Source: an uncultured Actinomycetota bacterium
GTDB taxonomy: Bacteria; Actinomycetota; Acidimicrobiia; Spongiisociales; UBA5794
Length of the DNA: 64,000 nt
NCBI GenBank assembly: GCA_963700375.1
Contig: CAVOXF010000003.1
Coordinates: 13,079-77,078, forward strand
Reading direction: 5' to 3'
Shown: positions 5,116 to 38,961 of the stretch, one piece after another
How positions within the stretch are numbered: position 1 is the stretch's first letter
Layout of the letters: every line of letters begins with the position of its first letter
Notes under the pieces: generated by a model
Seen by the model: only the letters and a program-made list of their open reading frames with translations
The model's database searches: none
What the model was told of the DNA's origin: nothing
Position numbers and translations under genes: made by a program

Positions 5116-5116
5116 C

Positions 5117-22445: not shown

Positions 22446-24361
22446 CACGACTCGTACATCCCGTTGACGAGATCGGAGAACGTGCTTTCCATCGCCCGAC
22501 GCTTGATCTTCTGCGTGGCCGTCAATTCGCCGTCTTCGTGGTCCAACTCTTTCGGGATGAGTCGGAACACCTTGATCTGCTCGACCGTCGCGAATTTCTC
22601 GTTCGTCTCGTTGACGACGCCCTGAATCAGTTCGATCACCTCGGGCTTCTCGGAGAGGTCCCGGTAGGTGGTGTAGGGGATGCTCTTGGAGAGCGCCCAG
22701 CCGCCGACCACGTCGTACTCGATCGCGATGAGCGCGGTGAGGTACTTGCGGCCGTCGCCGATGACCATCGCTTCCTTGACGAACGGCGAGGTCTTGAGGC
22801 TGTTCTCGATCTCCGAGGGTGAGATGTTCTTCCCGCCCGACGTGATGATGATGTGCTTGATCCGGTCGATGATCTTGATATGGGTTCCGTTGACCCACAC
22901 CCCGACGTCGCCGGTCATCAGCCATCCGTCCTCGGTGAACGTCTCAGCAGTCTCCCGGGGCTTGTTCCAGTAGCCGAGGAAGTTGCCGGGGTGCTTGGTC
23001 TGGATCTCGCCGGTCTTGTCGTCGAGGCGGAGGCCGATGCCGGGGTACGGCTCCCCGACGGTTCCCAGGATGGCGCGCCCGCCGAAGTTGAGCGTGGCGA
23101 CGGCGCTGTTCTCGGTCATCCCGTACAACTCGTACAAGGGGACGCCGAATCCCATGAAGAACTCGATGACCTCCGGCGCGATTGGTGCGGCGCTCGTCCC
23201 TGCCCATCGACACCGGCGCAGGCCGACCCGCTCCTTGAGGGCGCGGAACATGATGACGTTGCCGACCCAGTACGCCAGGCGGGTCGGGAGGGTGTAGTCG
23301 CCGCCGTGTTTGGCACGGCTCCGCCCGACGTACGCCGCGATCTTGAACCCAAGGGCGTTGACGAGGCGCTTCACGAACGAGGCGTCATTCGACTTGATGA
23401 GGATCGTGGCGTGGATCTTCTCCCAGATGCGGGGCACAGCGAAGAACAACGTCGGTTGGACCTCCTGGAGATTGATCTGGACGGTCTCGATCGACTCGGC
23501 GAAGTCGAGAATCGCCCCCGAGGAGCACATCGTCCACGTCGACATGATGCGTTCCGCAACGTGGCCGAGCGGGAGGTAGGTGAGAATCAGGTCGCTCGGG
23601 CCAGGAATCTTGCCGTCAGGGGCACGATCCGGGGCGAGGATCAGATTGTCGATGGCGAACGCGGCGTTCGCGTTGGTCAGCATCGCTCCCTTCGGCGGAC
23701 CGGTGGTTCCCGAGGTGTAGACGAGGGTCATGATGTCGTCGGATTCGGCTTCCGCCATCGCGGCGGCGACGCTGTTGGGATGCTGTTCGCGGTGGGCCCG
23801 GCCGAGTTCGAGGAAGTCGTCCCAGAAGAGCAGGCGTTCGTCGTCGTAGGAGCGCAGACCGCGGGGTTCCAGGTAGATGATCTTCGTGACGTTCGGGAAC
23901 GCCTCACGCCCGGGTTCGACGATCTTGTCGACCTGCTCCTGATCCTCAGCAAGGTGGACGCGGGCTCCGCAGTCGTTGACCAGATACTGCACCTCGGCAG
24001 TCGGGTTGGTCGGGTACAGGCCGGTCGACATAGCGCGGATCGCGATGGCGGCAAGGTCGAAGATCACCCATTCCGGCCGGTCTTCGGAGTGGATGGACAC
24101 AACGTCGCCATGGCGAACGCCGAGTGCGAGCAGGCCGTGAGACACGAGAACGATCTCTTCCCAGAGTTCGGCCCAGGTCCGCTGCTGCCAGATCCCGAGG
24201 CGCTTCTCGCGCATCGCGACCCCATCCGGAGAGGAAAGAGACCGCTCACGGACCATGAGAGCAACAGTGCGACATGCGTCGGATAGGTCGGGTCTCCCCG
24301 CCTGTTCGAGCGTGGTCGTCACGGCCCCATCGCCTCCAGTCCTCCGGCCCCAACGCCACAA
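22445..24361 (-). CDS. long-chain fatty-acid--CoA ligase (AMP-dependent synthetase, FadD family)
   Basis: AMP-binding motif YTSGTTGPPKGAM, TGD motif, C-terminal ...GKNISPSEIE; start uncertain (24361 ATG or internal). Confidence 0.8.
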   Translation of the reverse strand: MWRWGRRTGGDGAVTTTLEQAGRPDLSDACRTVALMVRERSLSSPDGVAMREKRLGIWQQRTWAELWEEIVLVSHGLLALGVRHGDVVSIHSEDRPEWVIFDLAAIAIRAMSTGLYPTNPTAEVQYLVNDCGARVHLAEDQEQVDKIVEPGREAFPNVTKIIYLEPRGLRSYDDERLLFWDDFLELGRAHREQHPNSVAAAMAEAESDDIMTLVYTSGTTGPPKGAMLTNANAAFAIDNLILAPDRAPDGKIPGPSDLILTYLPLGHVAERIMSTWTMCSSGAILDFAESIETVQINLQEVQPTLFFAVPRIWEKIHATILIKSNDASFVKRLVNALGFKIAAYVGRSRAKHGGDYTLPTRLAYWVGNVIMFRALKERVGLRRCRWAGTSAAPIAPEVIEFFMGFGVPLYELYGMTENSAVATLNFGGRAILGTVGEPYPGIGLRLDDKTGEIQTKHPGNFLGYWNKPRETAETFTEDGWLMTGDVGVWVNGTHIKIIDRIKHIIITSGGKNISPSEIENSLKTSPFVKEAMVIGDGRKYLTALIAIEYDVVGGWALSKSIPYTTYRDLSEKPEVIELIQGVVNETNEKFATVEQIKVFRLIPKELDHEDGELTATQKIKRRAMESTFSDLVNGMYES

Positions 24362-24396
24362 TAGAGGCTTGACCTGCCGCCTGCTGGAAACCCCAC

Positions 24397-24526
24397 GCTG
24401 CGAACCCAGGGTTCTCCGCTTTCTATTTGGCGCCGACAGCCCACAGAATGAACCGGGCCGCTGTGGCCTTCCATTCCGCGGGCTGTCGGCGTCACATACG
24501 ATGTGGAGAACCCTGGGTTCGCAGCG
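24397..24526. repeat. structured intergenic repeat family 1, copy 2
   Basis: same 21-bp terminal inverted repeats and inner stem as 7029..7160; abuts the stop codon of the HEAT-repeat gene and lies about 35 bp upstream of the fadD-like ORF start. Confidence 0.8.
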
Positions 24527-24934
24527 CTAGCCGGGCTGGCGTCCGACGACCATCTCCGCCGCCTCGCGGACCGACGGATTCCGATCTCGCGCCGCCGCCC
24601 GGATCGCCGGCTCAACGGCCGGATCGTCGAAGACGGTCAGAGCCACCACCGCCCGCCGCCGAACCTGGGGAGGGGCTTTGGCGACCAGTTCGAGCAGCGC
24701 AGAGAGGGCCGCGTCATCCCCGATTGCGCCCAGCGCGGCAACGGCCGCCTCGCGACCGGAGCGGTCGCCGTCGCCGGTCGCCACGTCGATGAGCCAAGGG
24801 ACCGCCGACTCGGCGCGGAGTTCGCCGTAGGCGGTGGCAATCGATTCGACCACGCGGGGATCATCGTCGGACCGGGCCAGGTCCAAGTCCGGAATCACCG
24901 CTCTACCCGCTCCCCCAAGCGCTTCGGCGGCCAT
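24527..24934 (-). CDS. HEAT repeat domain-containing protein (N-terminus unresolved)
   Basis: repeated ...AVEAL..IGD..A...L... HEAT-like units; only ATG at 24934; frame remains open with coding-like GC3 up to ~25147, see findings. Confidence 0.5.
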   Translation of the reverse strand: MAAEALGGAGRAVIPDLDLARSDDDPRVVESIATAYGELRAESAVPWLIDVATGDGDRSGREAAVAALGAIGDDAALSALLELVAKAPPQVRRRAVVALTVFDDPAVEPAIRAAARDRNPSVREAAEMVVGRQPG

Positions 24935-25124
24935 CGCACGCGCCGCGCCGTCGTGATCCGTGGCGAGGCGTCGGCTGATCGCTGCGATCGATTCGTCAGT
25001 CAGGCCCGAAGCGATGCAGACGGAGATGGCGAGGCGGCGCAGGGCGGCATCGCCGTGATCGAGGAACGGGATCGGGTCATCGAGGAGGCGAACCAGCGCC
25101 TCGCGATCGGCGGACGTTGCGGTA

Positions 25125-25580
25125 TCAGTAGTGATGAAGATCCTCCCTCACCCACTCGGCTCCGCCCGGCCAGTGCTCCTTCTTCCAGATCGGAGCCCGC
25201 GCCTTGATCTCGTCGATCAAGTAGCGCCCTGCGGGAAACGCGTCACTCCGGTGAGGCGTTGACACCGCAACGGCCACCGAGATCTCGCCGACCCGCAACT
25301 CCCCGACCCGGTGGATCGCTGCGACCTTGCTGACCGGCCAGCGCTCGCGGACCTCGGCGACGACTTCGGCGATCTTGTCGATGACCTGCTCGTCGTACGA
25401 CTCGTATTCGAGATGGGTCACCCCCGTCCGGCCCGGCGAGTGGTCCCTCACCGTTCCCACGAACAGCACGACCGCTCCCGCATCGGGGGAGGAAACGGCC
25501 GCTACAACGTCGCCCGGATCCACCGGATCGGCGGACACAGCGATCAGATCGGACTGCTGGGATAGGTGGTCTGAGGGCAT
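25125..25580 (-). CDS. moaE: molybdopterin synthase catalytic subunit MoaE
   Basis: 151-aa product with conserved IHRVGELRVGE...YLIDEIKARAPIWKKE motifs; ATG at 25580; the upstream part of the 322-aa track ORF is junk. Confidence 0.8.
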   Translation of the reverse strand: MPSDHLSQQSDLIAVSADPVDPGDVVAAVSSPDAGAVVLFVGTVRDHSPGRTGVTHLEYESYDEQVIDKIAEVVAEVRERWPVSKVAAIHRVGELRVGEISVAVAVSTPHRSDAFPAGRYLIDEIKARAPIWKKEHWPGGAEWVREDLHHY

Positions 25581-25592
25581 ACAATCGGCTCC

Positions 25593-26918
25593 GTGGACGA
25601 CACTACCAATGGAAACACACCATCGGTGCCTGAGCCTGACCCCTCGGATGAGCTCTATCCGCCATACGTGGCATACGTGAGGCCCTGGAGTTCGGAGAAC
25701 GGGCCGACGACACGGCGGTCGCCGGCGCCACCACCGGCCCCTGAGCCGAAGCCGCGCAGCCACATCTCGACCGGCGTGATCGCCTTCCTTGCGGCCGTGG
25801 TCGGCGCCATCGTCGGCATCGCACTGCTCGCGGCGCTTGGCGTCTTCTCGGATGATCCCGTCGAGGTTGCGACACCGCCGACCACCGCGCCCGCCACCAC
25901 CGTCGTTCGCGACGTCACAACCGAGATCGTCACCATCCCGACCGACCCCGGCGCTCCCGAGGCTGTTGCCGTCAAGGTCGTGCCCTCCGTGGTCACCGTC
26001 CAAGTGGGCGATCTCGAAGCGGACACGCTCACCCTGAGGGGATCGGGGTCCGGCGTGATCCTGGAGAACGGCTACATCGCCACGAACCACCATGTCATTG
26101 ACAACGCATCATTCGCCCGGATCGTCTTGCAGGATGGCCGCACGTACGACACCGAGATCATCGGATCCGATGCGTATACCGACCTCGCCGTGCTCAAGGT
26201 TGACATCGACGGACTCAGACCGATCGAGTTCGGATCCACCGACGATCTCGCCATCGGCCAGATGGCGATTGCCGTCGGCAATCCTCTGGGCCAAGACGGA
26301 GGGGCGTCACTCACCGTCGGTGTGATCTCCGCGTTGTCGCGGACCGTCGACTTCGAGGATGGCACCGGCCTCTACGGCATGCTCCAGACCGACGCGCCGA
26401 TCACCTCCGGCTCGAGCGGCGGCGCGCTTGTCGACGAGATGGGGAGGCTCATTGGGATCACCTCGGCGATCGGCGTCAGCCAGGCCGGCGCCGAAGGCAT
26501 CGGATACGCGATACCCGTCGAACTCGTTGAGCGGATCACCAGTGAGATCATCGAGACCGGAACTGCGAAGCATCCGTTCATCGGCATTTACGGGAACGAC
26601 TACGTCGTGACCGCCGACGACGGAGCGCTGACTCCGAGCGGGGCAGAGATCGCCGAAATCATTGAGGGCGCCTCGCCGGCCGGCGACTCGGGCTTCCTGC
26701 CCGGGGATGCAATCGTCGAGGTCGAGGGCGCCGAGATTAAGACCATGGAGGACCTGATCATCGCACTGCGCCTCTTCCACGTCGGCGAAGAAGTCCAGGT
26801 GACGGTGACCCGCGACGACGTGCCGATCACTGCCACCGTGCTCTTGATCGAGCGCCCGGATGATACGCCGCCCCTGACCAGCGAAGCGGGAGTCGAAGAG
26901 GTCCCCGGTGACGAGTGA
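25593..26918 (+). CDS. htrA: HtrA/DegP-like trypsin-like serine protease with PDZ domain
   Basis: cytoplasmic tail, TM helix, catalytic H (ATNHHV), D, S (GSSGGAL) triad, C-terminal PDZ. Confidence 0.8.
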   Translation: MDDTTNGNTPSVPEPDPSDELYPPYVAYVRPWSSENGPTTRRSPAPPPAPEPKPRSHISTGVIAFLAAVVGAIVGIALLAALGVFSDDPVEVATPPTTAPATTVVRDVTTEIVTIPTDPGAPEAVAVKVVPSVVTVQVGDLEADTLTLRGSGSGVILENGYIATNHHVIDNASFARIVLQDGRTYDTEIIGSDAYTDLAVLKVDIDGLRPIEFGSTDDLAIGQMAIAVGNPLGQDGGASLTVGVISALSRTVDFEDGTGLYGMLQTDAPITSGSSGGALVDEMGRLIGITSAIGVSQAGAEGIGYAIPVELVERITSEIIETGTAKHPFIGIYGNDYVVTADDGALTPSGAEIAEIIEGASPAGDSGFLPGDAIVEVEGAEIKTMEDLIIALRLFHVGEEVQVTVTRDDVPITATVLLIERPDDTPPLTSEAGVEEVPGDE

Positions 26919-28053
26919 CCTCCCTTTCCGTGGCGACGGCGACGACCTGTTTGCTCAGCTGTTTCGTCTCTTCCAGTCGTCGGGACCCGTCAACTGGAAC
27001 CTCGCCAAAGAGCTGACCAAGAACCTCGCCGGAGAACGCGAGCTGATCGAACCGGATCTCGCCGAGGAATACCGCGAACTCGGAACCGTTGCCGAATTGA
27101 GGATTCAGGCGACCTCGGATCTCCCGTCGCCATCGCCCGGAGACCTCAACCCGACCGACCGCACCACCTGGGCGCTCGAGAACCTGAAGACCTTCCGGAT
27201 TCTCGTCGAACCGCTGTCCGACAAACTCTCCGGCGGCTTCGCCGGTCTGCCCGGCGCTGAATCGCTCGGCCAGATGGGCGCAATGCTCCAGCCGCTCGGC
27301 CCGGCGCTGCTCGGGATGCAGGCAGGAACGATGGTTGGTTTCATGTCGCACCGGGTTCTCGGCCAGTTCGATACCGGGATTCCAGCCATCGACCACGATC
27401 AGCCGTACCTCGTGGTCCCCAACGTCGAGGCGTTTGCGTTCGAGGCTGAAGTCGACGTTCGCCAGGTCCGGCTGTGGGCGACCATTCACGAAATGGTGTT
27501 CCAACGCCTGATGGAGATCGAATGGCTGCGCGGACACTTCGTCTCGGTCGTCAACGCGTTCTACGACACCGTCGAGTTCGATGTGTCCGACATCATGGGC
27601 CAAATGGGGGCCCTCAACGACCCCGACCGCATTCGTGACCTCCTCGGCGAGGATGGTGCGTCTGCGCCGGCGCTGCTGAAGGGAACCGCCGACCCCGACC
27701 GCCTTGCAGCAATCCAATCGTGCACGGCGTTCATCGAGGGGTTCGGCGACTTCCTCGTGAGGCGGGCCGGATCGGACCTCCTCCCGGATCTCGATCGCAT
27801 CGAGAGCGCAAACGCACGACGGCGGTCCGAACCGGACCAGGCGGAGCAGTACCTCCAGCAGATCGTGGGGCTCGAACTCCAACGGTTCCGAGCCACCGAT
27901 GCCGCCGACTTCTGCCGCGAGGTCGAGCAGCGCTGGGGCGAACCGGCGCTCGACCGCGTCTGGGAGCAGCCGGAGAACCTGCCGACCCTGCCAGAACTCA
28001 CCGACCCCGTCGGCTGGGCCGCCCGCGTGATGATGGATCAATTCGATCTCTAG
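26908..28053 (+). CDS. zincin-like metallopeptidase domain protein (DUF2342 family)
   Basis: family-level resemblance (WATIHEMVFQ region); overlaps the htrA stop by 11 nt; GTG start. Confidence 0.55.
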   Translation: MTSDLPFRGDGDDLFAQLFRLFQSSGPVNWNLAKELTKNLAGERELIEPDLAEEYRELGTVAELRIQATSDLPSPSPGDLNPTDRTTWALENLKTFRILVEPLSDKLSGGFAGLPGAESLGQMGAMLQPLGPALLGMQAGTMVGFMSHRVLGQFDTGIPAIDHDQPYLVVPNVEAFAFEAEVDVRQVRLWATIHEMVFQRLMEIEWLRGHFVSVVNAFYDTVEFDVSDIMGQMGALNDPDRIRDLLGEDGASAPALLKGTADPDRLAAIQSCTAFIEGFGDFLVRRAGSDLLPDLDRIESANARRRSEPDQAEQYLQQIVGLELQRFRATDAADFCREVEQRWGEPALDRVWEQPENLPTLPELTDPVGWAARVMMDQFDL

Positions 28054-28059
28054 GTCGCC

Positions 28060-28195
28060 AGTCGCCAGGTCCCCTGAGGCCAACGGACGGGGGACGCGAA
28101 GGAGCGACAGCGACGACGCAGGTGGGCTTCGGGAGCCCGAGGCTGAAGATGAGGCCGGAAATGGCTCGCGGTTCGCAGCCGGCAGCCGTTCGTTC
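28060..28195. repeat. structured intergenic repeat family 2, copy A
   Basis: shares a roughly 70-nt core (GGGGGACGCG.AGGAGC.ACAGCGACGACGCAGG.GG.CTTC.GGGAGCCCGAGGC...GAAGATGAGGCC) with 42350..42475 and partly with 60100..60205. Confidence 0.6.
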
Positions 28196-28235
28196 TCGCG
28201 CTAGATTCCCGGCAGACTCACCAAGGAGACTCCGC

Positions 28236-28700
28236 ATGGCCGTGAAGATCGGTACGACACCGAAATCGTTCTCTCTCTTGGACCAGGACAAGAACCCCGT
28301 CACCCTCGACGACCTCAGGGGCAAGAAGAGCCTGATCGTCTTCATCCCGTTCCCGTTTACCGGCCACTGCGACAACGAGGCGTGCGCGATCCGGGATCAG
28401 CTCGCGGCACTGAACGACCTTGATGCGAACGTCGTCGTGATCACGTGCCACGCCGTGCCGGTCGCAAAGAAGTGGTCGGATGAGAACGGCTTCACCTTCC
28501 CGGTCCTATCGGACTTCTGGCCGCACGGGCTCGTGGCAACCAGCTTTGGTGCCTTCAACTGGGATGTCGGTGCCGCCAACCGGATGACCTTCGTCCTTGA
28601 CGCCCACGGGGTTGTGCGCACGATCATCGACAGCGGTTCGCTCGGGACACCACGCGAGTTCGAGGAGTACGTCGCCGCTCTCGGCAAGATCGACGAATAG
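28236..28700 (+). CDS. ahpE: AhpE-like 1-Cys peroxiredoxin (AhpC/TSA family)
   Basis: strong resemblance to mycobacterial AhpE (FTGHC peroxidatic Cys, LSDFWPHG, NRMTFVLD); RBS AAGGAGAC 6 nt upstream of ATG 28236. Confidence 0.8.
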   Translation: MAVKIGTTPKSFSLLDQDKNPVTLDDLRGKKSLIVFIPFPFTGHCDNEACAIRDQLAALNDLDANVVVITCHAVPVAKKWSDENGFTFPVLSDFWPHGLVATSFGAFNWDVGAANRMTFVLDAHGVVRTIIDSGSLGTPREFEEYVAALGKIDE

Positions 28701-28710
28701 GGGCATCAGC

Positions 28711-29655
28711 ATGGCGGAGACCGGCGAGGAGCACGAGCGGGAAACGAGCCGCATCCGCACGAACGCGGCGGTTGTGGTTGCGGTTCTGGGGGTGCTGCTC
28801 GCGACGATGGCTGTCGATGCCCTCTGGCTCCACGACCGGATCTTCAACACCGATCACTTCGTCGAGTCGCTGGCTCCACTCCCGCAGGACCCTGCGATTT
28901 CAACGGCAATCGCCGCCAAGACCGTCGAGGTTCTCGGATCCGGCGGCGCGGCCGAGTCCAAGGTCGCCGAGGTACTCCCAGACCGTCTCGCGTTCCTCGC
29001 TCCGCGGGTCATGGGCCTCGTCGAGGAGCAGGTCTTCGAAGCAACCCAGGGACTCGTCGCATCGGATGCGTTCGCTACGGTCTGGACCAAGGGACTCGAA
29101 CTGCTGCACTCGCGGATCATCGGCATCCTCGAGGGTGACCCGGCCCAGCCGAAAGAAGGCGGCATCGGGATCGCCCTCGAAGGAACGGCCGGACTCGTTC
29201 AAGCTGAACTCGACAGGCGGGGTATCGACCTGTTTGCCGATATTGAAACCAAGGCCGTGGAGATCGTTTTCATCCAGGCCGATGTGCTGGCGGGACCGCG
29301 CACGCTCGTGAACGTGTTCCACACCGGCGTGTGGGTGCTGCCGATCGTGGCGCTGATCGTTCTCGGTCTGGCGGTCCTCATCGACAAGGACCGCCTCCGC
29401 CCCATCCAGATCTTCGGATTCGGCCTCGCCATTGCCGAGCTCCTGAGCCTCGCCGGCATCCGGATCTTCGCGGGCTACGCCGGCGGAAAGATCGAGAACG
29501 AGGTCTATCGAGCGGGGGCCGGCGCCGTCTGGGATGCCCTCCTCAACGGCTATCTGGCGATCAGCGCCGTCGTGGGATTCACCGCCCTCGCGATCGGTCT
29601 CGCAGCCTGGTGGTTCCGCCGCCCGGATCCCGACTGCGGGATGGTCGAGGCTTGA
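28711..29655 (+). CDS. hypothetical membrane protein
   Basis: ATG at 28711, N-terminal TM helix and two C-terminal TM helices; no recognisable domain. Confidence 0.4.
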   Translation: MAETGEEHERETSRIRTNAAVVVAVLGVLLATMAVDALWLHDRIFNTDHFVESLAPLPQDPAISTAIAAKTVEVLGSGGAAESKVAEVLPDRLAFLAPRVMGLVEEQVFEATQGLVASDAFATVWTKGLELLHSRIIGILEGDPAQPKEGGIGIALEGTAGLVQAELDRRGIDLFADIETKAVEIVFIQADVLAGPRTLVNVFHTGVWVLPIVALIVLGLAVLIDKDRLRPIQIFGFGLAIAELLSLAGIRIFAGYAGGKIENEVYRAGAGAVWDALLNGYLAISAVVGFTALAIGLAAWWFRRPDPDCGMVEA

Positions 29656-29683
29656 CGCTCCCGAGGCCTGCTAGGCTCGGGCG

Positions 29684-30373
29684 TCATCGCCTACGCACCC
29701 AGCCGATAGCCGACGCCCCGCACCGTCTCGATGCTCGTGGCGCACCGTCGACTTGTTCGAGCTTCCGCCGGAGGCGCCGGATGTGCTGGTCGAGGGTCTT
29801 CGAATCGGTCCACGTGATGCCCCATATCTCATCGAGGAGCCGCTCGCGGGGCACGATCCGCCCCCGCTCGATCATCAACGCCTCCAGCACCTCGAACTCC
29901 TTGCGGGGCAGGTCGAACACCAACGCTCCGGCGCGAAGCTGATAGCGCCCCTGGTCGAGTTCTATGTTGCCGGCTCGCACGATCCGTTCCTCTGTTCCAC
30001 GGGTCTCGCCATCAGCGATCGACCGTCGGAGAGCGGCGTGAACGCGGGCGAGGAGCTCGCGAATCGAATAGGGCTTCGCCAGGTAGTCGTCGGCCCCTAA
30101 CTCGAGCGCGGTAACGATGTCCGATTCAGCATCCTTGGCTGAGAGCACAATCACCGGCGTGGTCGCCTCGGTACGAATCCTGCGGAGCACATCCAACCCC
30201 GACATCTCCGGCAACATGAGGTCGAGCAACACAATGTCGGGAACATCCTCGAGGAAGGCCATGAGTCCAGCTCGTCCATCCATGGCAGCTGATACGTCGA
30301 AACCCTCCCGCTCGAGAGCAACGGACAAGGCCTCCACGTAGGCCGGTTCATCCTCGACGACTAGAACACGCAT
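29684..30373 (-). pseudogene. regX3: OmpR/PhoB-family response regulator (RegX3-like) with a -1 frameshift in the DNA-binding wing near 29730..29740
   Basis: REC domain (MRVLVVEDEP...D...K) plus winged helix; the annotated frame ends ...APRASRRCGASAIGWVRRR, while the alternate frame encodes the canonical OmpR C-terminus IETVRGVGYRLGA followed by TAG at 29691. Confidence 0.75.
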
Positions 30374-30377
30374 GTTC

Positions 30378-31586
30378 TCAACTCCTTGGAGAAGGCAGAC
30401 GCAACGTGAACGTGCTCCCTTCCGCCGGTACGGACTCGACCGAAACCGAACCTCCGTGGGCCTCGGCCACGTTCCGCACGATCGACAGCCCGAGACCGGT
30501 CCCTCCGGACGATCGCCCTCGGCCCCGCTCAACACGATAGAACCGCTCGAAGATTCGGTCGAGGTGCTCCGCTGAGATTCCGCTTCCATGGTCCTCAACG
30601 GCAATCACTACCTGATCATCGCTGCAGCGTACCGAAACAGCCACCGCCACACCCTCGCCCTCCGGCGAGTACTTGATCGCATTCTCGAGAAGGTTCACGA
30701 CGGCCGACGTCAACTGCTCCAGGTTGCCGACGACGACGGCAGAGCAGTCTCCCCCATCGAGGTCGACCCTGACGCCGGCCTCGGCCGCGACGACCGAGAC
30801 ACGCGACATCGCTTCGTCAATCACGCTGGCGACGCTGACGGACTCGAATGGAGTTTCGAGCGATTCGATATCGGCAAGCGTGACGATGTCGTCAACGAGA
30901 TGTGCCATGCGGTTTGCCTCCGAGATCAGCCGCTCGACAAGCCGCCTCCTCGTATCGGGGTCATCAGTGTCGCCCAGAGTCTCCGCCAGAATCGCAAGTG
31001 CACCCAGCGGTGTCTTCATCTCATGTCCGGCGTTCGTCAGGAAGTCTCGTCGCATTGCCTCCACGCGTCGCTGTCCGGACAGATCCCTGATGTACACGGC
31101 TGCCGCATGGTCCCAAATCTCCCCGCTCGGCAATGGCACCGCGCGGAGCCTCATGAATCGACGTACCGGCGTGTAGACATCGAACTCCAACTGCTCCGGA
31201 CTTCCCGAACTCGTGACCCGCTGGATGAGTTGATTCAGCCGACTGCGCGCGGTGGCGTCGCCGATCTTGCCTTCGAGGACACGGCGTCCGACCGTGTTCG
31301 CGTACGCAACCGAGCCTCGCTGGTCAGCAATGATGACACCGAGATCGGTCGATTCGACAACAGCTCGGAATCGGGCAGCCTCGACCCTCGACGCTGCCAG
31401 GTCATCTCGCAGACTGCGTGCCGCTCGCGAAAGGGAGGTCGCTTCAGCCGCATCCGTGGCGGCACCCATGATCTCCAAGGTCGAACTCGCCTCGCGCTCG
31501 AGTTCACGGCGGCGGCGGTTGGCCCACAGAGCAGCCGCAACGGCAGCCACGAAGCCGATGGCAAGGATCACAAGAAGGGGGCTCAC
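30378..31586 (-). CDS. senX3: sensor histidine kinase (SenX3-like: TM, PAS, HisKA, HATPase_c)
   Basis: H-box AGHEMKTPL, N-box LLENAIKY, G-boxes DHGSGI and GGTGLGLSIV; directly upstream of the response regulator (4-nt gap). Confidence 0.8.
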   Translation of the reverse strand: MSPLLVILAIGFVAAVAAALWANRRRRELEREASSTLEIMGAATDAAEATSLSRAARSLRDDLAASRVEAARFRAVVESTDLGVIIADQRGSVAYANTVGRRVLEGKIGDATARSRLNQLIQRVTSSGSPEQLEFDVYTPVRRFMRLRAVPLPSGEIWDHAAAVYIRDLSGQRRVEAMRRDFLTNAGHEMKTPLGALAILAETLGDTDDPDTRRRLVERLISEANRMAHLVDDIVTLADIESLETPFESVSVASVIDEAMSRVSVVAAEAGVRVDLDGGDCSAVVVGNLEQLTSAVVNLLENAIKYSPEGEGVAVAVSVRCSDDQVVIAVEDHGSGISAEHLDRIFERFYRVERGRGRSSGGTGLGLSIVRNVAEAHGGSVSVESVPAEGSTFTLRLPSPRS

Positions 31587-31637
31587 GGCGCGTGACTATA
31601 CGGCCCCGGGAACCAATCCGAACTCCCGCGGACGCGC

Positions 31638-31680
31638 GGTTCATGGGGTTGGCTTGGGAAATCACGTTCAGTTCACTTCG
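31638..31680 (+). promoter_or_regulatory. candidate PHO-box-like direct repeats (GTTCA units; tandem GTTCAGTTCAC at 31666..31676) in the divergent senX3 / pstS promoter region
   Basis: GTTCA pentamers recur about 110-150 bp upstream of pstS; PhoP/RegX3-type regulators of actinobacteria bind direct repeats of this type; inference only. Confidence 0.25.
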
Positions 31681-31786
31681 GGGCCGCCTGACCTTCAAAG
31701 GGCCTCCATAGCCTGTCGTCCGATGATCGAAGCAGCTGTTCAACGCACGTCGTCGTCAGCTCATTGGCACAGAAGGAGAACGATCA

Positions 31787-32863
31787 ATGAAACGAACCAT
31801 GTTCCTGATCGTTGCGCTCGTCGCGTTTGCGCTCGTCGCTGCGGCGTGTAGCACCGACAGCGACGAGACCACGACCACCGCCGCAGGCACCGACGAGACC
31901 ACGACGACCGCCGCCTCGAGTGGTGGAGACACATCACAATGGGGCCTCCCCATCATCGACCCGCTCGATATTCCGGCGGGCGATATCGCCATCGCCGGCT
32001 CGTCAACGGTCTTCCCGCTGTCGGTCGCGATCCTCGACCAGTGGCAGGACGAGGGCGGTCCGGAGTACGCGATCGATTCGATCGGCTCCGGGGGCGGTTT
32101 CGAGCGGTTCTGTGTGGAGGGAGCCTCCGACATCTCGAACGCCAGCCGCGCCATCAAGGATGAAGAGATCGCTGCCTGCGGCGACCTCGATCCGGCTCGA
32201 TTCCCAATCGAGGTTCGTGTTGGCACGGATGCACTCTCGCTGGTACTCGGCACGGGCAACTACTTTGCCCAGGAGCTGACGATTGAGGAGCTCGCCGCTG
32301 TGTTCTCGGCCCCGGCCGGCGCCACGTGGGACACGATCAACCCCGCCTTCCCTGCCCACCCGATCCAAGCGTTCTCGCCTGGAGCTGACTCGGGTACGTT
32401 CGACTACTTCAATGAGGTGGTCTTCGGCGAGGCCGATCCGTCGCCGATCCTCGAATCCGGTGTCGTCGAGATCGTCGGTGAAGACGACAACCTCACCGTG
32501 CGTGGTGTGGGGGACGATGGATGCACCGAGGGCGACCTGAGCTCAACCTGCGCAATTGGCTACTTCGGATACGCCTACTACCAGGAGAACTCCGACACCC
32601 TCGAAGTCGTCGCCGTCGACGCTGGTGAGGGCCCGGTGGCACCCACCATCGACACGGTCAACGACAACTCGTACCCGATCTCCCGTCCGTTGTACATGTA
32701 CACCGACGAATCCGTCATTGTGGCCAAGCCACAGGTGGCCGACTTCATGGCCTACTACCTGAACAACGTGAACGACCTTATCGGAGAGGTCGGCTACTTC
32801 CCGGCACCGGACGCGGCCCTGCAGCAGGCTGCCGACGCCATCAAGGCAGCAGCAGGCTGGTAG
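31787..32863 (+). CDS. pstS: phosphate ABC transporter substrate-binding lipoprotein PstS
   Basis: signal peptide with lipobox (LVAAAC), Thr-rich linker, PstS family domain; AGGAGAA RBS. Confidence 0.85.
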   Translation: MKRTMFLIVALVAFALVAAACSTDSDETTTTAAGTDETTTTAASSGGDTSQWGLPIIDPLDIPAGDIAIAGSSTVFPLSVAILDQWQDEGGPEYAIDSIGSGGGFERFCVEGASDISNASRAIKDEEIAACGDLDPARFPIEVRVGTDALSLVLGTGNYFAQELTIEELAAVFSAPAGATWDTINPAFPAHPIQAFSPGADSGTFDYFNEVVFGEADPSPILESGVVEIVGEDDNLTVRGVGDDGCTEGDLSSTCAIGYFGYAYYQENSDTLEVVAVDAGEGPVAPTIDTVNDNSYPISRPLYMYTDESVIVAKPQVADFMAYYLNNVNDLIGEVGYFPAPDAALQQAADAIKAAAGW

Positions 32864-32914
32864 CAGGCATTCCACGCGGTTCGACCCCGGTCACCGCATG
32901 AATCTACGATGAAT

Positions 32915-32946
32915 GGCTCCCGGTCGGTCTCAGCCGACCGGGAGCC
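32915..32946 (+). terminator. intercistronic hairpin between pstS and pstC (13-bp stem GGCTCCCGGTCGG / CCGACCGGGAGCC)
   Basis: perfect inverted repeat with 6-nt loop; likely partial terminator giving pstS excess over pstCAB. Confidence 0.55.
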
Positions 32947-32991
32947 ATCGCACGGAGCCGGAAGACACTCGACGCCGAAATCGAAGGCGAC

Positions 32992-33960
32992 ATGACTGCC
33001 AACACACCACAGAACAAGGACAGTACGTCACGGCTCAAGAAACGGCGCCGACCCGGTGAGTCGGTGATCGTTGGGCTCTTGTTTGCGGCCGGAGCACTAT
33101 CGATCGCCATCACCGTCGGCATCCTCTATGAACTCGGGACCGAGTCACTCCTCTTCTTCCGCGACCCGGCGGTCTCGTTCTGGGGCTTCATCACCGGCAC
33201 CGTATGGCAACCTCAGGCCGGTACGTTCGGCATCTGGCCCCTGATCCTCGGTACGTTGCTGATCACCATCATCGCCCTCATCGTCGCCGTCCCCATCGGT
33301 CTCTCTGCGGCCGTCTACCTCTCCGAATACGCCAGCCAACGGGTGCGCGGTTTCTTCAAACCGGTGCTCGAGATCCTCGTCGGCATTCCGACCGTCGTCT
33401 TCGGATTCTTCGCCATCACCTTCATGACGCCGGTGCTTCGCTCGATATTCGGGTCAAGCGTCGTTGGCTTCTTCAACGTGCTTTCTGCCGGCATCGTCGT
33501 CGGGATCTTGATCATTCCGCTCGTCAGCTCCCTCTCCGAGGATGCCATGTCGGCGGTTCCGAATTCGCTGCGGCAGGCGGCGTATGGCCTCGGCGCATCG
33601 AAACTCGAAGTATCCCTGCGGATCGTCTTGCCTGCCGCCCTCTCGGGAATCGCCGCAGGCGTTGTGATTGCCATGTCACGAGCAATCGGCGAGACGATGG
33701 TTGTAACCCTTGCTGCGGGCGCCTCGCCCCGCAACTTCGACATCGGTTCGGATTCGCTCTTTGGCTACATCCTCAACCCGTTCCAAGGCGCCCAGACAAT
33801 GACCGGCTACATCGCTATCACTGCCAGCGGCGACATCAGCTACAACACCATCGACTACAACTCGATCTTCGCCATCGGGTTGACGCTCTTCTTCATGACG
33901 CTCGGCCTCAACTCGCTGAGCCGCCGAATCGTGAAGCGCTTCCGGCAGGAGTACGAATGA
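32992..33960 (+). CDS. pstC: phosphate ABC transporter permease PstC
   Basis: polytopic permease with EAA-like loop (AMSRAIGETMVV). Confidence 0.85.
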   Translation: MTANTPQNKDSTSRLKKRRRPGESVIVGLLFAAGALSIAITVGILYELGTESLLFFRDPAVSFWGFITGTVWQPQAGTFGIWPLILGTLLITIIALIVAVPIGLSAAVYLSEYASQRVRGFFKPVLEILVGIPTVVFGFFAITFMTPVLRSIFGSSVVGFFNVLSAGIVVGILIIPLVSSLSEDAMSAVPNSLRQAAYGLGASKLEVSLRIVLPAALSGIAAGVVIAMSRAIGETMVVTLAAGASPRNFDIGSDSLFGYILNPFQGAQTMTGYIAITASGDISYNTIDYNSIFAIGLTLFFMTLGLNSLSRRIVKRFRQEYE

Positions 33961-35360
33961 GCACCGACCTGGATGTTCGCAGCGGACGGGAATACTTTCC
34001 GACTGCGGAGAAGTATGAGAAATTGCTCCAGAAGCGCACGCGCCGCGCCCTCTTCGCTCAGGCAGCGCTGATGCTTGCCCTCGTCGTCGCGGTTGTCGCT
34101 CTCATCACCCTGCTGCTCACCATCATCAATGACTCGTTCGGGCTCGTTGCCCAGGTCAATCAGGTGGAACCCGAAGAGATTGTGGCTTCGGTGGGCTACG
34201 ACCCGGCAGCGGTTGCCCTAGGTGATCTCTCGAAGGACGAACTCGTCACCGTGCTGCAATCAGGTGTCTCGAACAATGTCGGCCGCCGCTTGGAACGCGA
34301 CCAGCGGTTCTACGAAGACCGGCTGGTTTTCGAATCTCAAGCGAAGTGGGACGAAGTCTGTGCCTCATCGGAGCCGCCAACCGGCTGTTCCGGCGGCTCG
34401 CGCGATCAGTCCAACGTGCTCCTCTTGGTGCAGGAACGAATCGTCGAACCCGACATCGTCGCCACAGCCACCCTCTGGCAGTCGATGTTCAACCCGTCGG
34501 AGTTCGAAGATGCTGTGCAGACGTCGTTCGCTGAGAACCCCGATCGATACGGCGACTACACCTACGATCAGGTTCGGTACCAGTGGCGGGCGTGGCTCAG
34601 CTGGACGTTCGTGACCAGCCCGGCCAGCGCGACTCCCGAGACTGCCGGAATCAGCACTGCGATCCTCGGTTCGCTCTGGCTCGTCGTCATCACCATCCTC
34701 TTCGCCGTCCCCGTCGGTGTGGGTGCCGCGATCTATCTCGAGGAGTTTGCGAAGCCGAATCGCATCAACGACTTCATCCAGACCAATATCAACAACCTGG
34801 CCGGCGTTCCTTCCATCATCTACGGCATGCTCGGCCTCGCCATCTTCGTCCGACTCTTCGAACCGATCACCTCTGGAGCGATCTTCGGTGTAGACACCGC
34901 GAATGGGCGGACCGTGCTGTCGGCAGGCCTCACGCTCGGCGTGCTCACGCTCCCGGTCGTCATCATCAGCGCGCAAGAAGCAATCCGGGCGGTCCCCAAC
35001 TCGTTGAGGCAAGCCGGGTTGGGCCTCGGCGCCACCACGTGGCAAACGGTGCGCAGTCACGTACTCCCCATCGCCCTGCCGGGAATCCTGACGGGAACCA
35101 TCCTCGCCGTCGCCCGAGCGATCGGTGAAACCGCTCCGCTCATCCTTGTCGGCGCTGCCGGATTCATCACGACCAGCCCGTCTGGTCCCTTCTCGCAGTT
35201 CACCGCACTGCCGATCCAGATCTTCCAATGGACCGCCCTGCCGCAGGAGGAGTGGCGTCACCTCGCCGCAGCTGCCAGCCTCGCGCTCCTGGTCCTACTC
35301 TTGATTCTCAACTCCGGCGCCGTGATACTCCGCAACCGATACTCCAGGAGAATGCTGTGA
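33957..35360 (+). CDS. pstA: phosphate ABC transporter permease PstA (with long N-terminal periplasmic extension)
   Basis: ATG overlaps the pstC stop (ATGA); C-terminal permease domain with [12 protein letters not shown] motif. Confidence 0.85.
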
Positions 35361-36277
35361 CAAACGAAACGCCCGAATCCGCCGGCGTCGACACAGCGTG
35401 GCGCGACGAGAACCATACCGACCTCGTCGCCGACTTCCCTTCGCCGGACGAGATTCCGCACCACGAGCCAGCGCACGAGCAAGAGGTCGAGGCCCCCGGG
35501 GTCTTGGAGACCATCGATATGAACGTGTTCTACGGCGATTTCAAGGCCGTAGCCGATGTCTCGTTGAACTTCGCCACGAACGACATCAGTGCCTTGATCG
35601 GCCCATCCGGTTGCGGCAAGTCGACGGTATTGCGCTCACTCAATCGGATGAACGACCTGATTGCAACCGCCCACACCACCGGCGAGGTGAGATATCACGG
35701 CTCCAACATCTACGAATCGGGAATCGATCCGGTGGAGATTCGGCGCCACATCGGCATGGTGTTCCAGAAGCCGAACCCCTTCCCGAAATCCATCTTCGAC
35801 AACATCGCGTGGGGCGCCAAGATCAATGGCTTCAAGGGATCGAAAGCCGACATGGGCGATCTGGTAGAGGACACCCTTCGGCAGGCGGCATTGTGGGACG
35901 AGGTCAAGGACAAGCTCAAGGACAGCGGCCTCTCCCTCTCGGGCGGCCAACAACAGCGCCTGTGTATTGCCCGAGCCATCGCAACACAGCCGGATGTCAT
36001 TCTGATGGATGAGCCCTGCTCGGCGCTTGATCCAATTGCGACACTGCGCATCGAGGAGTTGATGATCGACCTCAAGAGCAACTACTCGATCATCATTGTC
36101 ACCCACAATATGCAGCAGGCTGCTCGGGTATCAGACAAGACTGCCTTCTTCAACGTGGCCCTGGATACGAAGGGCCAGCGAACAGGCCACCTGGTCGAGT
36201 TCACCCCGACCGATGAGCTATTCACCACTCCCAGGGAAAAAGCGACCGAGGACTACATCACAGGACGGTTTGGATGA
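35357..36277 (+). CDS. pstB: phosphate ABC transporter ATP-binding protein PstB
   Basis: Walker [10 protein letters not shown], signature LSGGQQQRL, Walker B ILMDEP; start either GTG 35357 (overlapping the pstA stop) or ATG 35519. Confidence 0.85.
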
Positions 36278-36993
36278 TGCCTATGGACACAAACGGGGCT
36301 GACCACAGCAGTCCTTACCACGGCGATATTCGCCTCCGCTACGAAGAGCAGCTAGATGAGATCCGAAGCGGGCTCGTCGAGATGACCTCGCTTGTTCTGG
36401 AAAACACTCGAAAGGCCGGCGCCGTCGTCGTCGACAATCGCCTCGATCTCGTCGATGAGGTTCGAGCAGCGGACAAGCCGATCAACGAGCTCTACGCGAG
36501 GCTCGAGGATCTCGCCTTCCTCATCCTCGCTCGTCAGCAACCGGTGGCGGTAGATCTGAGATTCCTCATTGCCACGACACGGATCCTCTACGAAGCGGAG
36601 CGCTCTGGTGACCTGGCGGTCAACATCGTGAACCGCGTCGAAGCGCACAACGGCTTCCCACAAATACCCTCGATCCACAGCCTTCTCACCCGACTAGTCG
36701 ACGAATCCTGCAAGATGTTCGCCCAGGCCGTCGAGGCGTTGGCGACCTTCGACCCCGAGATCGGCGAGAACGCTGAAGCCGCAGACGACATTGTCGACAC
36801 CACAACGACTCGCTTCTTCGGAACGGTGCACGCTCACAGCACCGAGATCGGCCTCGACTCTGCCGTGGAGTTGACGCACGTCGGGCGCTTCCTCGAGCGA
36901 ATCGCCGACCACGGTGTCAATATCGCCCAGAACGTCACCTACATCGTGACGTCGGTCTTCCCCGATGGGGAAGACATCGAGACAACGAGATAG
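36274..36993 (+). CDS. phoU: phosphate signalling complex protein PhoU
   Basis: two PhoU repeats; overlaps the pstB stop. Confidence 0.85.
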
Positions 36994-37092
36994 GATGTCG
37001 TCCGCAATTCACCCGCAGCGTGCACGGGGCGTTCGTTGATCTGATCGCCGGTTCAACTCGTCTGTGTTCGTCTGCCTGACGACCGGACGACA

Positions 37093-38253
37093 TTGGATTC
37101 CGACACCGAGCCCACGAACCTCCTCGAGTCGGGCTCACCTGCGCGGCCCACGATCCCGGGATGGGCACGGACGATCCTCGTCATCGGCCTGCTCTATCTC
37201 TTCCTCGTCGGTGTCAACCTCCTCGAGGGCGGCATCAGCAAGGTCAGCGGCGGGGCGAACGAGAGCCTCTTCGACGGGATCACCAACCCGCTCGCAGCCT
37301 TGGCCGTAGGCATTCTCGCCACCGTCCTCGTGCAGTCGTCTTCGGTAACGACGTCGACGATTGTTGCACTCGTTGCCGCCGGCAGTCTTCCGCTGGAAAC
37401 GGCGGTGCCGATGATCATGGGCGCCAACATCGGCACCACCATCACGAACACCCTCGTCTCTCTCGGTCACGCGAGGCGATCGGATGAGTTCCGCCTCGCC
37501 CTCACCGCGGCCACAATGCACGACTTCTTCAACGTGCTCGCGGTTGTCATCATCCTCCCGCTGGAACTGGCCTTCGGCATCCTGTCGAAACCGGCAGCCG
37601 CCATCGCAAATGCCTTCGCAGGCGAGGTCGGCGGTGGCAAGTTCGATAGCCCGATCAAGGGTGCGGTCAAATGGGGTGCCGGCCTCATCGAGTCACTACT
37701 CGAACTCATCACGAAGAACGAGCGGGCCCTCGGCGCCCTCCTCCTGATCGTCGGCCTGGCGATGATCTTCTTCACGCTCACGTACATCACGAAGAACATG
37801 AAGATCCTCATCGCCGCACGGATCGAACGGTCTCTCAACGCCGCGCTCGCGAAGAGCGGACTGATCGGGATGTCCGTCGGCGTCGTCATCACGATGGCGG
37901 TGCAATCGTCGAGCATCACGACCTCGATCCTGATTCCACTGGTCGCGTCCGGACTCCTGCTCGTGCAGAACGCCTATCCGATCACCCTCGGCGCAAACGT
38001 CGGAACGACGATTACCGCCCTCCTTGCCGCATTCGCCGCCGGAACGGTCGACGGACTCACAATCGCTCTCGTCCACCTCTTGTTCAACGTGCTCGGCATT
38101 CTCATCCTCTACCCGATCCCCAAGATCCGGGTCATCCCGATCCAACTCGCCGGGTTGCTGGCGCGCACCGCGGTCGACCGCAAGTGGGTTGCGGTCGCCT
38201 ACGTTGTAGGTGTATTCATTGCCCTGCCCATATTGGTTATCGTCGTCTCGTAG
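37093..38253 (+). CDS. Na/Pi cotransporter family protein (NptA-like)
   Basis: duplicated Na_Pi_cotrans repeats (GANIGTTITN / GANVGTTITA); start codon uncertain (TTG 37093). Confidence 0.75.
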   Translation: MDSDTEPTNLLESGSPARPTIPGWARTILVIGLLYLFLVGVNLLEGGISKVSGGANESLFDGITNPLAALAVGILATVLVQSSSVTTSTIVALVAAGSLPLETAVPMIMGANIGTTITNTLVSLGHARRSDEFRLALTAATMHDFFNVLAVVIILPLELAFGILSKPAAAIANAFAGEVGGGKFDSPIKGAVKWGAGLIESLLELITKNERALGALLLIVGLAMIFFTLTYITKNMKILIAARIERSLNAALAKSGLIGMSVGVVITMAVQSSSITTSILIPLVASGLLLVQNAYPITLGANVGTTITALLAAFAAGTVDGLTIALVHLLFNVLGILILYPIPKIRVIPIQLAGLLARTAVDRKWVAVAYVVGVFIALPILVIVVS

Positions 38254-38262
38254 GAGGTCCAC

Positions 38263-38931
38263 ATGGTTTTTCAGTTCTTCAAGGGAGGCGAGTCGACGAT
38301 CGACGTGGTCGAGGCGACGCTCGTGCGGATGGTGCTGGACGGACGCGACGTCTACGACACCGCCATGGACGCCCTCTTCGGTGGCGGGAAATCGAAAGAG
38401 ACGAAGCAGGAACTCAAGACGACGGATCGCGTCATCAATACCGCGCAGAAGGACGTTCGCCGGGATCTGATGATCCATGCCTCGGTCAGCGACACCGTGG
38501 ACCTCCCGCTCGTGCTCGCCTATATGAGCACCGTGAAGGACGCCGAGCGGATCGGCGACTACGCGAAGAACTTCTACGACCTGGTCAAGTACGGAGCAGA
38601 CTTCGAGAACGCTCCAGACCGTGATCTCCTGGCCGACTATCGCAACCGCGTGTCGACATTGCTGAGCGACGCGGCACAGACATTCAAGGACCGGGATGAG
38701 AACCGCGCCCGCGAGCTGATCGCCAAAGCCGATGGGTTCCTCGACGAGTACGACGCCCACGTGAAGGCGGCTGCCCAGTCGACCGGTCCCGCATCGGACG
38801 CCGTCGCCCGTGCGCTCTACTTCCGCTTCCTGAAGCGCATCACGGCGCACGTGATGAACTTCCTGACGTCGCTGGTACTCCCTCTCGACCAGCTCGACTA
38901 CTACGACGAGGCCAAAGACGACCGCGTATAG
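38263..38931 (+). CDS. PhoU-domain / DUF47-like regulator paired with the Na/Pi cotransporter
   Basis: AGGAGG RBS before ATG 38263; helical PhoU-like repeats; immediately downstream of the NptA-like gene. Confidence 0.6.
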   Translation: MVFQFFKGGESTIDVVEATLVRMVLDGRDVYDTAMDALFGGGKSKETKQELKTTDRVINTAQKDVRRDLMIHASVSDTVDLPLVLAYMSTVKDAERIGDYAKNFYDLVKYGADFENAPDRDLLADYRNRVSTLLSDAAQTFKDRDENRARELIAKADGFLDEYDAHVKAAAQSTGPASDAVARALYFRFLKRITAHVMNFLTSLVLPLDQLDYYDEAKDDRV

Positions 38932-38961
38932 GTTCTCGCGCGCTCCATGGCTCGCCGGTTG

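What the first reader, a model, noticed from the sequence alone, without database searches (positions are those of the whole stretch)
29691..29745. -1 frameshift removes the canonical DNA-binding wing of the RegX3-like response regulator
In the annotated frame the protein ends ...KLEQVDGAPRASRRCGASAIGWVRRR. Shifting frame near 29730..29740 gives ...IETVRGVGYRLGA followed by TAG at 29691..29693, which is the nearly universal OmpR/PhoB C-terminal recognition strand. The regulator sits next to its SenX3-like kinase and divergent from pstSCAB-phoU, so loss of DNA binding would affect the phosphate regulon, if the change is real.
Basis: partly seen in the sequence, partly recalled or inferred. Interest (0 to 1): 0.55.

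Follow-up and report, generated by a model that had tools for sequence, protein, structure and literature searches.

The report
Assembly-error frameshift in RegX3-like regulator gene
The broken end of this phosphate-response regulator gene is really in the assembled sequence, but it is almost certainly a two-base consensus error of a long-read metagenome assembly rather than a biological loss of DNA binding.

Summary
On the minus strand the regulator ORF (30373..29684) ends in 16 unrelated residues. Another frame encodes IETVRGVGYRLGA plus TAG (29732..29691), which completes the Pfam Trans_reg_C match (5-64/77 becomes 5-77/77). One detail needs correcting: the window carries two extra bases, not one missing base. 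All close relatives are 226 aa with GAP[S/R/K/Q]IETVRG.

A sibling assembly (99.5-99.8% identical over 58 kb) and an independent JGI contig both carry the intact gene. The frameshifted product occurs on a single contig in a 5.8-billion-protein collection.

The window has two more private one-base insertions that break conserved genes: UPF0182 at 11247 and purH at 51407. The sibling has three different ones, in the senX3-like kinase, UPF0182 and a DivIVA-like gene. A third assembly from a neighbouring ENA accession (ERZ25039603, next to the sibling's ERZ25039600) shows the same signature. In all six coding events the broken copy is the one with the extra base(s).

The window's sequence at the site looks like a merge of two in-frame alleles, Arg (CGA) and Ser (AGC). 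I conclude it is a consensus artefact (about 0.88) and not a real feature. Reads were not available, so a true strain-specific null allele (about 0.08) is not excluded.

The parts
29684..30373 (-). Response-regulator ORF as assembled (229 aa): REC domain plus a Trans_reg_C domain truncated at profile position 64/77, followed by a 16-residue out-of-frame tail
29733..29741 (-). Frameshift site, GCG CCA CGA GC on the minus strand. It holds two surplus bases: G29741 + A29738 relative to the sibling (GCC CCG AGC), or G29734 + C29733 relative to the Arg allele of 92%-identical relatives (GCG CCG CGA)
29691..29732 (-). True 3' end of the gene in the other frame: IETVRGVGYRLGA plus TAG (Trans_reg_C profile positions 65-77)
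29684..29684 (-). A further window-private extra A, which creates the TGA that ends the shifted ORF. It is absent from the sibling and from the JGI contig L089
30378..31586 (-). SenX3-like histidine kinase (HisKA + HATPase_c, 402 aa), immediately upstream of the regulator. It is intact here but broken by an extra G in the sibling, at the position matching window 31245
31787..38931 (+). Divergent phosphate-uptake cluster: pstS 31787..32863, pstC 32992..33960, pstA 33957..35360, pstB about 35357..36277, phoU about 36274..36993, Na/Pi cotransporter about 37093..38253, PhoU-like about 38263..38931
9553..12484 (-). Second frame-broken gene of the window: UPF0182, split at Pfam profile position 395/396 by an extra G at 11247. 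Removing that base gives a 976-aa ORF
51140..52658 (-). Third frame-broken gene of the window: purH, broken by an extra A at 51407. Removing that base gives the 505-aa protein seen intact in the sibling

Best explanation
The frame break is a consensus (assembly or polishing) artefact. The organism most likely encodes an ordinary 226-aa RegX3-like OmpR/PhoB-family regulator ending ...GAP(R/S)IETVRGVGYRLGA.

The proposed mechanism is inferred, not shown. The sampled population holds two in-frame alleles that differ by a multi-nucleotide change at one codon: Arg, GCG CCx CGA ATC, and Ser, GCC CCG AGC ATC. When reads of both alleles are piled up, that difference aligns as two deletions plus a two-base insertion. 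A consensus that accepts only part of this set gives GCG CCA CGA GC ATC, which is exactly the window sequence, two bases too long.

The same assembly, and its sister assemblies from neighbouring ENA accessions, show the same kind of private surplus-base errors in other conserved genes.
For: 1. The allele is a singleton. Among the 120 closest proteins listed from a 5.8-billion-sequence collection, only P0002 (identical to the window's product; 1 member, 1 contig) has the shifted tail. All other full-length close relatives are 224-227 aa.

2. The sibling contig ERZ25039600:contig_23223 is 99.78% identical over 20.7 kb around the gene and encodes the intact 226-aa protein.

3. An independent JGI contig (L089) is about 100% identical to the sibling over the last roughly 575 bp. 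It carries the intact allele and lacks the extra A at 29684.

4. Removing either of two base pairs restores a 226-aa protein. One version equals the sibling's Ser allele and the other the Arg allele of the 92% relatives, so the window reads as a merge of the two.

5. The site lies in a difference-dense patch: 8 substitutions and 3 indels within 29636..29753. The average is about 1 substitution per 310 bp over the 58 kb compared, or about 1 per 530 bp in this 20.7-kb segment.

6. The window has other private surplus bases that break conserved genes: UPF0182 (+G at 11247) and purH (+A at 51407). Both are intact at those sites in the sibling.

7. The sibling has its own private surplus bases that break the kinase, UPF0182 at another site, and a DivIVA-like gene. 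All three are intact in the window.

8. A third assembly, ERZ25039603 (a neighbouring accession to the sibling's), has 6 single-base insertions within about 5 kb. It lies in and next to a SNP-dense stretch whose Na/Pi cotransporter, phoU and pstA/pstB calls are fragmented or fused, while two other assemblies of the same strain have them intact.

9. In all 6 coding events between window and sibling, the broken copy is the one with the extra base(s).

10. The mechanism has been described. Nearby allelic variants cause wrong read alignments and introduce indel errors in collapsed long-read assemblies (PMC8445201). Indel-driven frameshifts in Nanopore MAGs are documented (PMC8103633).
Against: No reads, coverage or platform information was available, so the artefact is inferred from comparison only.

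The Arg haplotype with CCA has not been seen on its own. Only its protein equivalent is seen, in relatives at 92% identity.

The substitution cluster beside the site is in frame: SGT becomes CGM in the convergent gene at 29636..29643. It looks like a genuine divergent haplotype, so at least part of the local difference is probably real.

Three broken genes out of roughly 55-60 is not by itself outside the range of true pseudogene content.

That these assemblies come from long reads is my inference from contig names (contig_N) and Mb-scale metagenomic contigs.
Confidence: 0.88

Rival explanations
1. A real, strain-specific two-base insertion has produced a RegX3 null or crippled allele. The regulator would lose its C-terminal beta-hairpin, could not bind or activate pst and other phosphate-starvation promoters, and the strain would be locked in the uninduced state.
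For: The bases are in the deposited assembly, and the gene was called as a 229-aa protein in public records. The flanking patch carries in-frame substitutions typical of a real divergent haplotype. Natural frameshift polymorphisms in regulators do occur (general knowledge).
Against: The allele is a singleton. There is no decay downstream of the shift: the 42 nt encoding IETVRGVGYRLGA* are identical to the sibling. The kinase and the whole pst-phoU cluster are intact. The same contig also has broken purH and UPF0182, and the sibling has a different private set, which fits error better than six independent recent pseudogenisations among 187 substitutions. All polarisable events are surplus bases.
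Confidence: 0.08
2. Programmed -1 ribosomal frameshifting: the ribosome slips back one base near GCA at 29734..29732 to make the full-length regulator, giving translational control of RegX3 levels.
For: A -1 slip after CGA GCA would read GAPRA-IETVRGVGYRLGA, a near-normal 227-aa protein that scores a full Trans_reg_C match.
Against: There is no slippery X XXY YYZ heptamer at CCA CGA GCA TCG (read directly). The arrangement is not conserved: every close relative encodes the protein in one frame, including a 99.8%-identical sibling. The only hairpin lies about 45 nt downstream, beyond the stop, and is shared with intact alleles.
Confidence: 0.01
3. The 229-aa protein is a functional variant with a new basic tail (ASRRCGASAIGWVRRR) that replaces the wing and changes DNA-binding specificity.
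For: The tail is Arg-rich and could in principle contact DNA. The recognition helix region (TLDQHIRRLRRKL) is retained.
Against: The tail occurs in only one sequence in the collection. Its stop codon depends on a second private extra base, A29684. The replaced segment corresponds to Pfam profile positions 65-77, part of the conserved fold. Arg-rich tails are the usual look of out-of-frame translation in 64% GC DNA; the broken UPF0182 and purH ORFs end the same way.
Confidence: 0.02

Closest known systems
Gene-fragmenting indel errors in long-read (meta)genome assemblies, especially where collapsed alleles or strains differ by nearby variants (PMC8445201; PMC8103633; PMC12007338)
   Same: The frame breaks are private and surplus-base in type, and they hit conserved genes. 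Different genes are hit in near-identical assemblies. The RR site lies in a difference-dense patch and reads as a partial merge of two in-frame alleles. PMC8445201 describes exactly this route: nearby allelic variants cause misalignment, which puts indels in the collapsed consensus.
   Different: The platform and the reads for this window are unknown to me. The published case is a diploid eukaryote, whereas here the 'alleles' would be co-existing strains in a metagenome.
SenX3-RegX3 two-component system of mycobacteria (RegX3 structure PDB 2OQR)
   Same: It has REC + Trans_reg_C architecture. RegX3 is the best solved-structure match (E 2.9e-54, aligned end to end, including ...TVRGLGYKL against ...TVRGVGYRL). 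The kinase gene is immediately upstream on the same strand. Sources label homologues RegX3.
   Different: Here the pair sits divergently next to pstSCAB-phoU, in an uncultured Acidimicrobiia lineage (source names). Regulation of pst by this protein has not been tested.
PhoB/OmpR winged-helix DNA-binding domain (Pfam PF00486)
   Same: The repaired protein matches profile positions 5-77/77. The segment lost in the assembled frame is the conserved C-terminal IxTVRGxGYxL segment. By my own knowledge of PhoB-DNA structures, not tested here, it forms the C-terminal beta-hairpin (wing).
   Different: As assembled, only profile positions 5-64 are present.

Membership tests
OmpR/PhoB-family response regulator | N-terminal receiver (REC) domain | tested here: met
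   PF00072, residues 3-111, profile 1-110/111, 106 bits
OmpR/PhoB-family response regulator | Complete C-terminal winged-helix domain (PF00486), including the terminal segment | tested here: inconclusive
   As assembled, only profile 5-64/77 is matched (65 bits). Joined across the frame break the match is 5-77/77 (90 bits). Whether the organism makes the complete domain depends on whether the two extra bases are real.
SenX3-RegX3-type phosphate-sensing two-component system | Closest characterised relative is RegX3 | tested here: met
   PDB 2OQR RegX3 is the top hit at E 2.9e-54; next is MtrA at 2.5e-42. JGI names homologues RegX3.
SenX3-RegX3-type phosphate-sensing two-component system | Cognate histidine kinase adjacent in the same operon | tested here: met
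   A HisKA + HATPase_c protein of 402 aa lies at 30378..31586 (-). Its stop is 4 nt before the regulator's ATG.
SenX3-RegX3-type phosphate-sensing two-component system | Controls phosphate-starvation genes (pst and others) | not testable with these tools
   Only the divergent placement next to pstSCAB-phoU is shown.
Genuine pseudogene or natural null allele | Same lesion seen in independent data (other samples or assemblies) | tested here: not met
   Only one protein record on one contig has the shifted tail. The sibling assembly and JGI contig L089 carry the intact allele.
Genuine pseudogene or natural null allele | Read-level support for the lesion | not testable with these tools
   No reads were available.
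Programmed ribosomal frameshift | Slippery heptamer at the shift site, and conservation of the two-frame arrangement | tested here: not met
   The site CCA CGA GCA TCG has no X XXY YYZ motif. All relatives are single-frame.
Assembly or consensus indel artefact | Multiple private frame breaks in conserved genes of the same assembly that are absent from near-identical genomes | tested here: met
   The window has breaks in the RR, UPF0182 and purH. The sibling has breaks in the kinase, UPF0182 (another site) and a DivIVA-like gene. L083 has broken Na/Pi cotransporter, phoU and pstA/B calls.
Assembly or consensus indel artefact | Reads disagree with the consensus at the site | not testable with these tools
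   No reads were available.

The most novel reading that the evidence does not exclude
The two extra bases are real. This uncultured Acidimicrobiia strain would then carry a natural RegX3 allele lacking the C-terminal DNA-binding hairpin, co-existing with intact-allele strains. That would be a standing polymorphism in phosphate-starvation signalling within one environmental population.
Probability: 0.08. Interest if true: 0.3.

Novelty: not a real feature. Interest (0 to 1): 0.05.

Why it matters
The main value is as a caution. Taken at face value, the deposited sequence would suggest a phosphate-regulon regulator that cannot bind DNA, a broken purine-biosynthesis gene (purH) and a broken UPF0182 gene. 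Comparison with a near-identical sibling shows these are best treated as consensus errors. Any pseudogene, metabolic-gap or regulatory inference from this contig and its sister assemblies should therefore be checked against reads. If the frameshift were real, it would be a modest example of natural variation in phosphate sensing.

Tried and rejected
1. Exact look-up of the 229-aa product and of P0002 in the gene-position index found nothing on record. I could not retrieve the window's own contig record or sample.

The best hit it returned was only 74% identical, which was no help in polarising the indels.

3. A GC3 frame-plot used to find further frameshifts was noisy. The apparent frame switches at 12.6-13.7 kb and 60-63.5 kb are intact low-complexity or repeat proteins (DivIVA-like, 691 aa; CheA-like, 1065 aa), not frameshifts.

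4. Large stop-to-stop ORF overlaps at 1.3, 3.1, 43.6, 45.5, 54.6 and 57.9 kb are ordinary gene boundaries with complete Pfam domains.

5. The extra C at 47811 falls only in a junk-looking 221-aa ORF call, so I did not count it as a broken gene.

6. The extra A at 29684 could have been validated by hairpin complementarity. However, the inter-gene hairpin folds about equally well with it (-28.2 kcal/mol) and without it (-28.5 kcal/mol in L089), so this does not discriminate.

7. The indels at 28076 and 28078 could not be polarised, because the outgroup lacks that intergenic segment.

8. A literature search for the sample and assembly accessions found nothing.

9. The consensus terminator scan found nothing at the gene end.

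Full report
**What is in the sequence**

The regulator gene lies on the minus strand. It starts at ATG 30373..30371, 4 nt after the stop of a histidine-kinase gene, and the frame stays open to TGA 29686..29684. This gives 229 aa ending ...RRLRRKLEQVDGAPRASRRCGASAIGWVRRR. A second frame reads IETVRGVGYRLGA and stops at TAG 29693..29691.

Pfam finds a receiver domain (PF00072, 106 bits). The Trans_reg_C domain covers only profile positions 5-64 of 77 as assembled (65 bits). When the two frames are joined it covers 5-77 (90 bits).

The context it described is also correct, tested directly on the window:
- a HisKA + HATPase_c kinase at 30378..31586 (-);
- divergent from it, pstS, pstC, pstA, pstB, phoU, a Na/Pi cotransporter and a second PhoU-like gene at 31787..38931 (+).

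The best solved-structure relative is M. tuberculosis RegX3 (2OQR, E 2.9e-54), ahead of MtrA.

**Nature of the lesion**

A search of 5.8 billion proteins returned many close relatives from Acidimicrobiia MAGs and metagenomes. The full-length ones are 224-227 aa, and those inspected read GAP[S/R/K/Q]IETVRGVGYRL. Only one record, P0002, has the shifted tail. It is identical to the window's product, with one member on one contig of 592,996 bp.

The window therefore has two bases too many rather than one too few. DNA at the site:

| Source | Sequence | Protein |
|---|---|---|
| 92%-identical relatives | GGT GCG CCG CGA ATC GAG | GAPRIE |
| 99.8%-identical sibling | GGT GCC CCG AGC ATC GAG | GAPSIE |
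| Window | GGT GCG CCA CGA GC ATC GAG | frame broken |

Deleting G29741 + A29738 reproduces the sibling's protein. Deleting G29734 + C29733 reproduces the Arg form. Both give 226 aa. The window sequence thus reads as the Arg allele with the last two bases of the Ser allele's AGC added.

**Is it real?**

No reads were available, so I compared assemblies. The sibling contig (ENA ERZ25039600, contig_23223, 1.1 Mb) was fetched in three pieces covering 58.1 kb of the window:

| Locus | Window range | Identity |
|---|---|---|
| L090 | 1..17017 | 99.63% |
| L001 | 19688..40372 | 99.78% |
| L091 | 43593..64000 | 99.49% |

There are 187 substitutions across these pieces. Outside a Pro-Glu repeat, every indel is a single base.

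Extra bases private to the window:
- +G at 11247. This splits UPF0182 exactly at Pfam profile position 395/396. Removing it gives 976 aa.
- +G at 29741 and +A at 29738, in the regulator.
- +A at 51407. This truncates purH at AICARFT_IMPCHas profile position 290/311. The sibling's purH is intact at 505 aa.
- Non-coding extra bases at 29684, 28076, 28078 and 47811.

Extra bases private to the sibling:
- +G at the position matching window 31245. The kinase is called at 258 aa there, against 402 aa in the window and in three outgroup assemblies.
- +G at the position matching window 10328. UPF0182 is split into 722 + 244 aa.
- +G at the position matching window 13194. A DivIVA-like protein is split into 266 + 429 aa, against 691 aa intact in the window.

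In all six coding events the broken copy is the one with the surplus base(s), and none of the breaks is shared.

A third assembly, ERZ25039603 (L083), carries a neighbouring accession to the sibling's. It has six single-base insertions within about 5 kb, lying in and next to a SNP-dense stretch. There the Na/Pi cotransporter, phoU and pstA/pstB calls are fragmented or fused, while two other assemblies of the same strain have them intact.

An independent JGI contig (L089) is about 100% identical to the sibling over its last roughly 575 bp. It has the intact allele and lacks the extra A at 29684.

**Mechanism proposed (inferred)**

The regulator site sits in a patch of unusually dense differences: 8 substitutions and 3 indels in 118 bp (29636..29753). 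The average is about one substitution per 310 bp over the 58 kb compared, or about one per 530 bp in this 20.7-kb segment. Some of these differences are in frame and look genuine. For example, SGT becomes CGM in the last codons of the convergent 314-aa gene.

This suggests two haplotypes at the locus. The Arg/Ser difference (CGA against AGC, plus a GCG/GCC change) aligns as two one-base deletions plus a two-base insertion. A consensus caller that accepts only part of that set would produce exactly the window sequence.

[quoted passage not shown] Residual indel frameshifts in Nanopore MAGs are described in PMC8103633. That these contigs come from long reads is my inference from their names and sizes.

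**Rivals**

- *Real null allele.* This cannot be excluded without reads. Against it: the allele is a singleton; the downstream 42 nt are perfectly preserved; the kinase and pst cluster are intact; and the pattern of private, surplus-base breaks extends to purH in the same contig.
- *Programmed -1 frameshifting.* This is rejected. There is no slippery heptamer, and the two-frame arrangement is not conserved even in a 99.8%-identical genome.
- *Functional new basic tail.* This is unlikely. The tail is unique, its stop codon depends on another private extra base, and the broken UPF0182 and purH ORFs end in similar Arg-rich out-of-frame tails.

**Verdict**

The biological interpretation, loss of DNA binding, is very probably wrong, because the frame break is most likely an assembly artefact (about 0.88). 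It is not a real feature and interest is low.

The useful output is a warning. This contig and its sister assemblies carry roughly one frame-breaking consensus error per 20 kb: three broken genes each in the 58 kb compared.

Noticed in passing
window 9553..12484 (-), extra G at 11247: The UPF0182 membrane-protein gene is split into two ORFs exactly at Pfam profile position 395/396. Removing one base gives a 976-aa ORF. The sibling is intact here but broken by its own extra G at the position matching window 10328.
   Followed up: yes
window 51140..52658 (-), extra A at 51407: purH (AICAR transformylase/IMP cyclohydrolase) is frameshifted and ends in an Arg-rich out-of-frame tail. The sibling has an intact 505-aa purH. 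This is probably another consensus error.
   Followed up: yes
L001 about 9129; L090 14303 and 17169 (sibling contig ERZ25039600:contig_23223): The sibling assembly has its own private extra G's, which break the senX3-like kinase, UPF0182 and a DivIVA-like gene. All three are intact in the window.
   Followed up: yes
L083 2100..6400 (ERZ25039603:contig_7092): Six single-base insertions relative to L084, lying in and next to a SNP-dense stretch. Gene calls for the Na/Pi cotransporter, phoU and pstA/pstB are fragmented or fused there. This is the same error signature in a third assembly, which carries a neighbouring accession to the sibling's.
   Followed up: partly
L089 (JGI Ga0316195_10044948), 506..1700 versus 1700..2276: The last roughly 575 bp are about 100% identical to the sibling. 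The upstream 1.2 kb (kinase and regulator 5' part) is only about 70% identical. The contig is either a chimeric short-read assembly or a recombinant.
   Followed up: partly
window 29636..29643 (+ strand gene 28711..29655): Five substitutions within 8 bp change the last residues of the convergent 314-aa membrane protein (no Pfam match) from ...SGTVEA to ...CGMVEA relative to the sibling and L089. The change is in frame, so it is probably a real divergent haplotype patch next to the frameshift site.
   Followed up: partly
window 29650..29695: A GC-rich hairpin (-28 kcal/mol, z = -2.5, no T tract) lies between the convergent regulator gene and the 314-aa gene. It may be a bidirectional terminator. 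It folds equally well in the alleles that lack the extra A.
   Followed up: partly
window 12511..14586 (-), repeats about 13440..13600: A 691-aa DivIVA-like protein has a long Pro-Glu dipeptide repeat. Repeat length differs from the sibling by +2, -6 and -6 bases.
   Followed up: no
window 60219..63416 (-): A 1065-aa CheA-like hybrid protein (HATPase_c, CheW, receiver) has three tandem copies of a motif of about 30 aa (...EPVDEPASSAHDAFARLAGAGV...) in an acidic linker.
   Followed up: no
window about 47320..47957, extra C at 47811: About 640 bp between the HU-like gene and mdh has no convincing ORF; only a junk-looking 221-aa ORF is called in the sibling. The junk-ORF translations of window and sibling differ at many positions. 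The function is unknown.
   Followed up: no
window 28068..28196: The intergenic segment between the AhpC-like and Zincin_2 genes is absent from the 84%-identical outgroup. It carries 5 substitutions and 2 indels relative to the sibling.
   Followed up: partly
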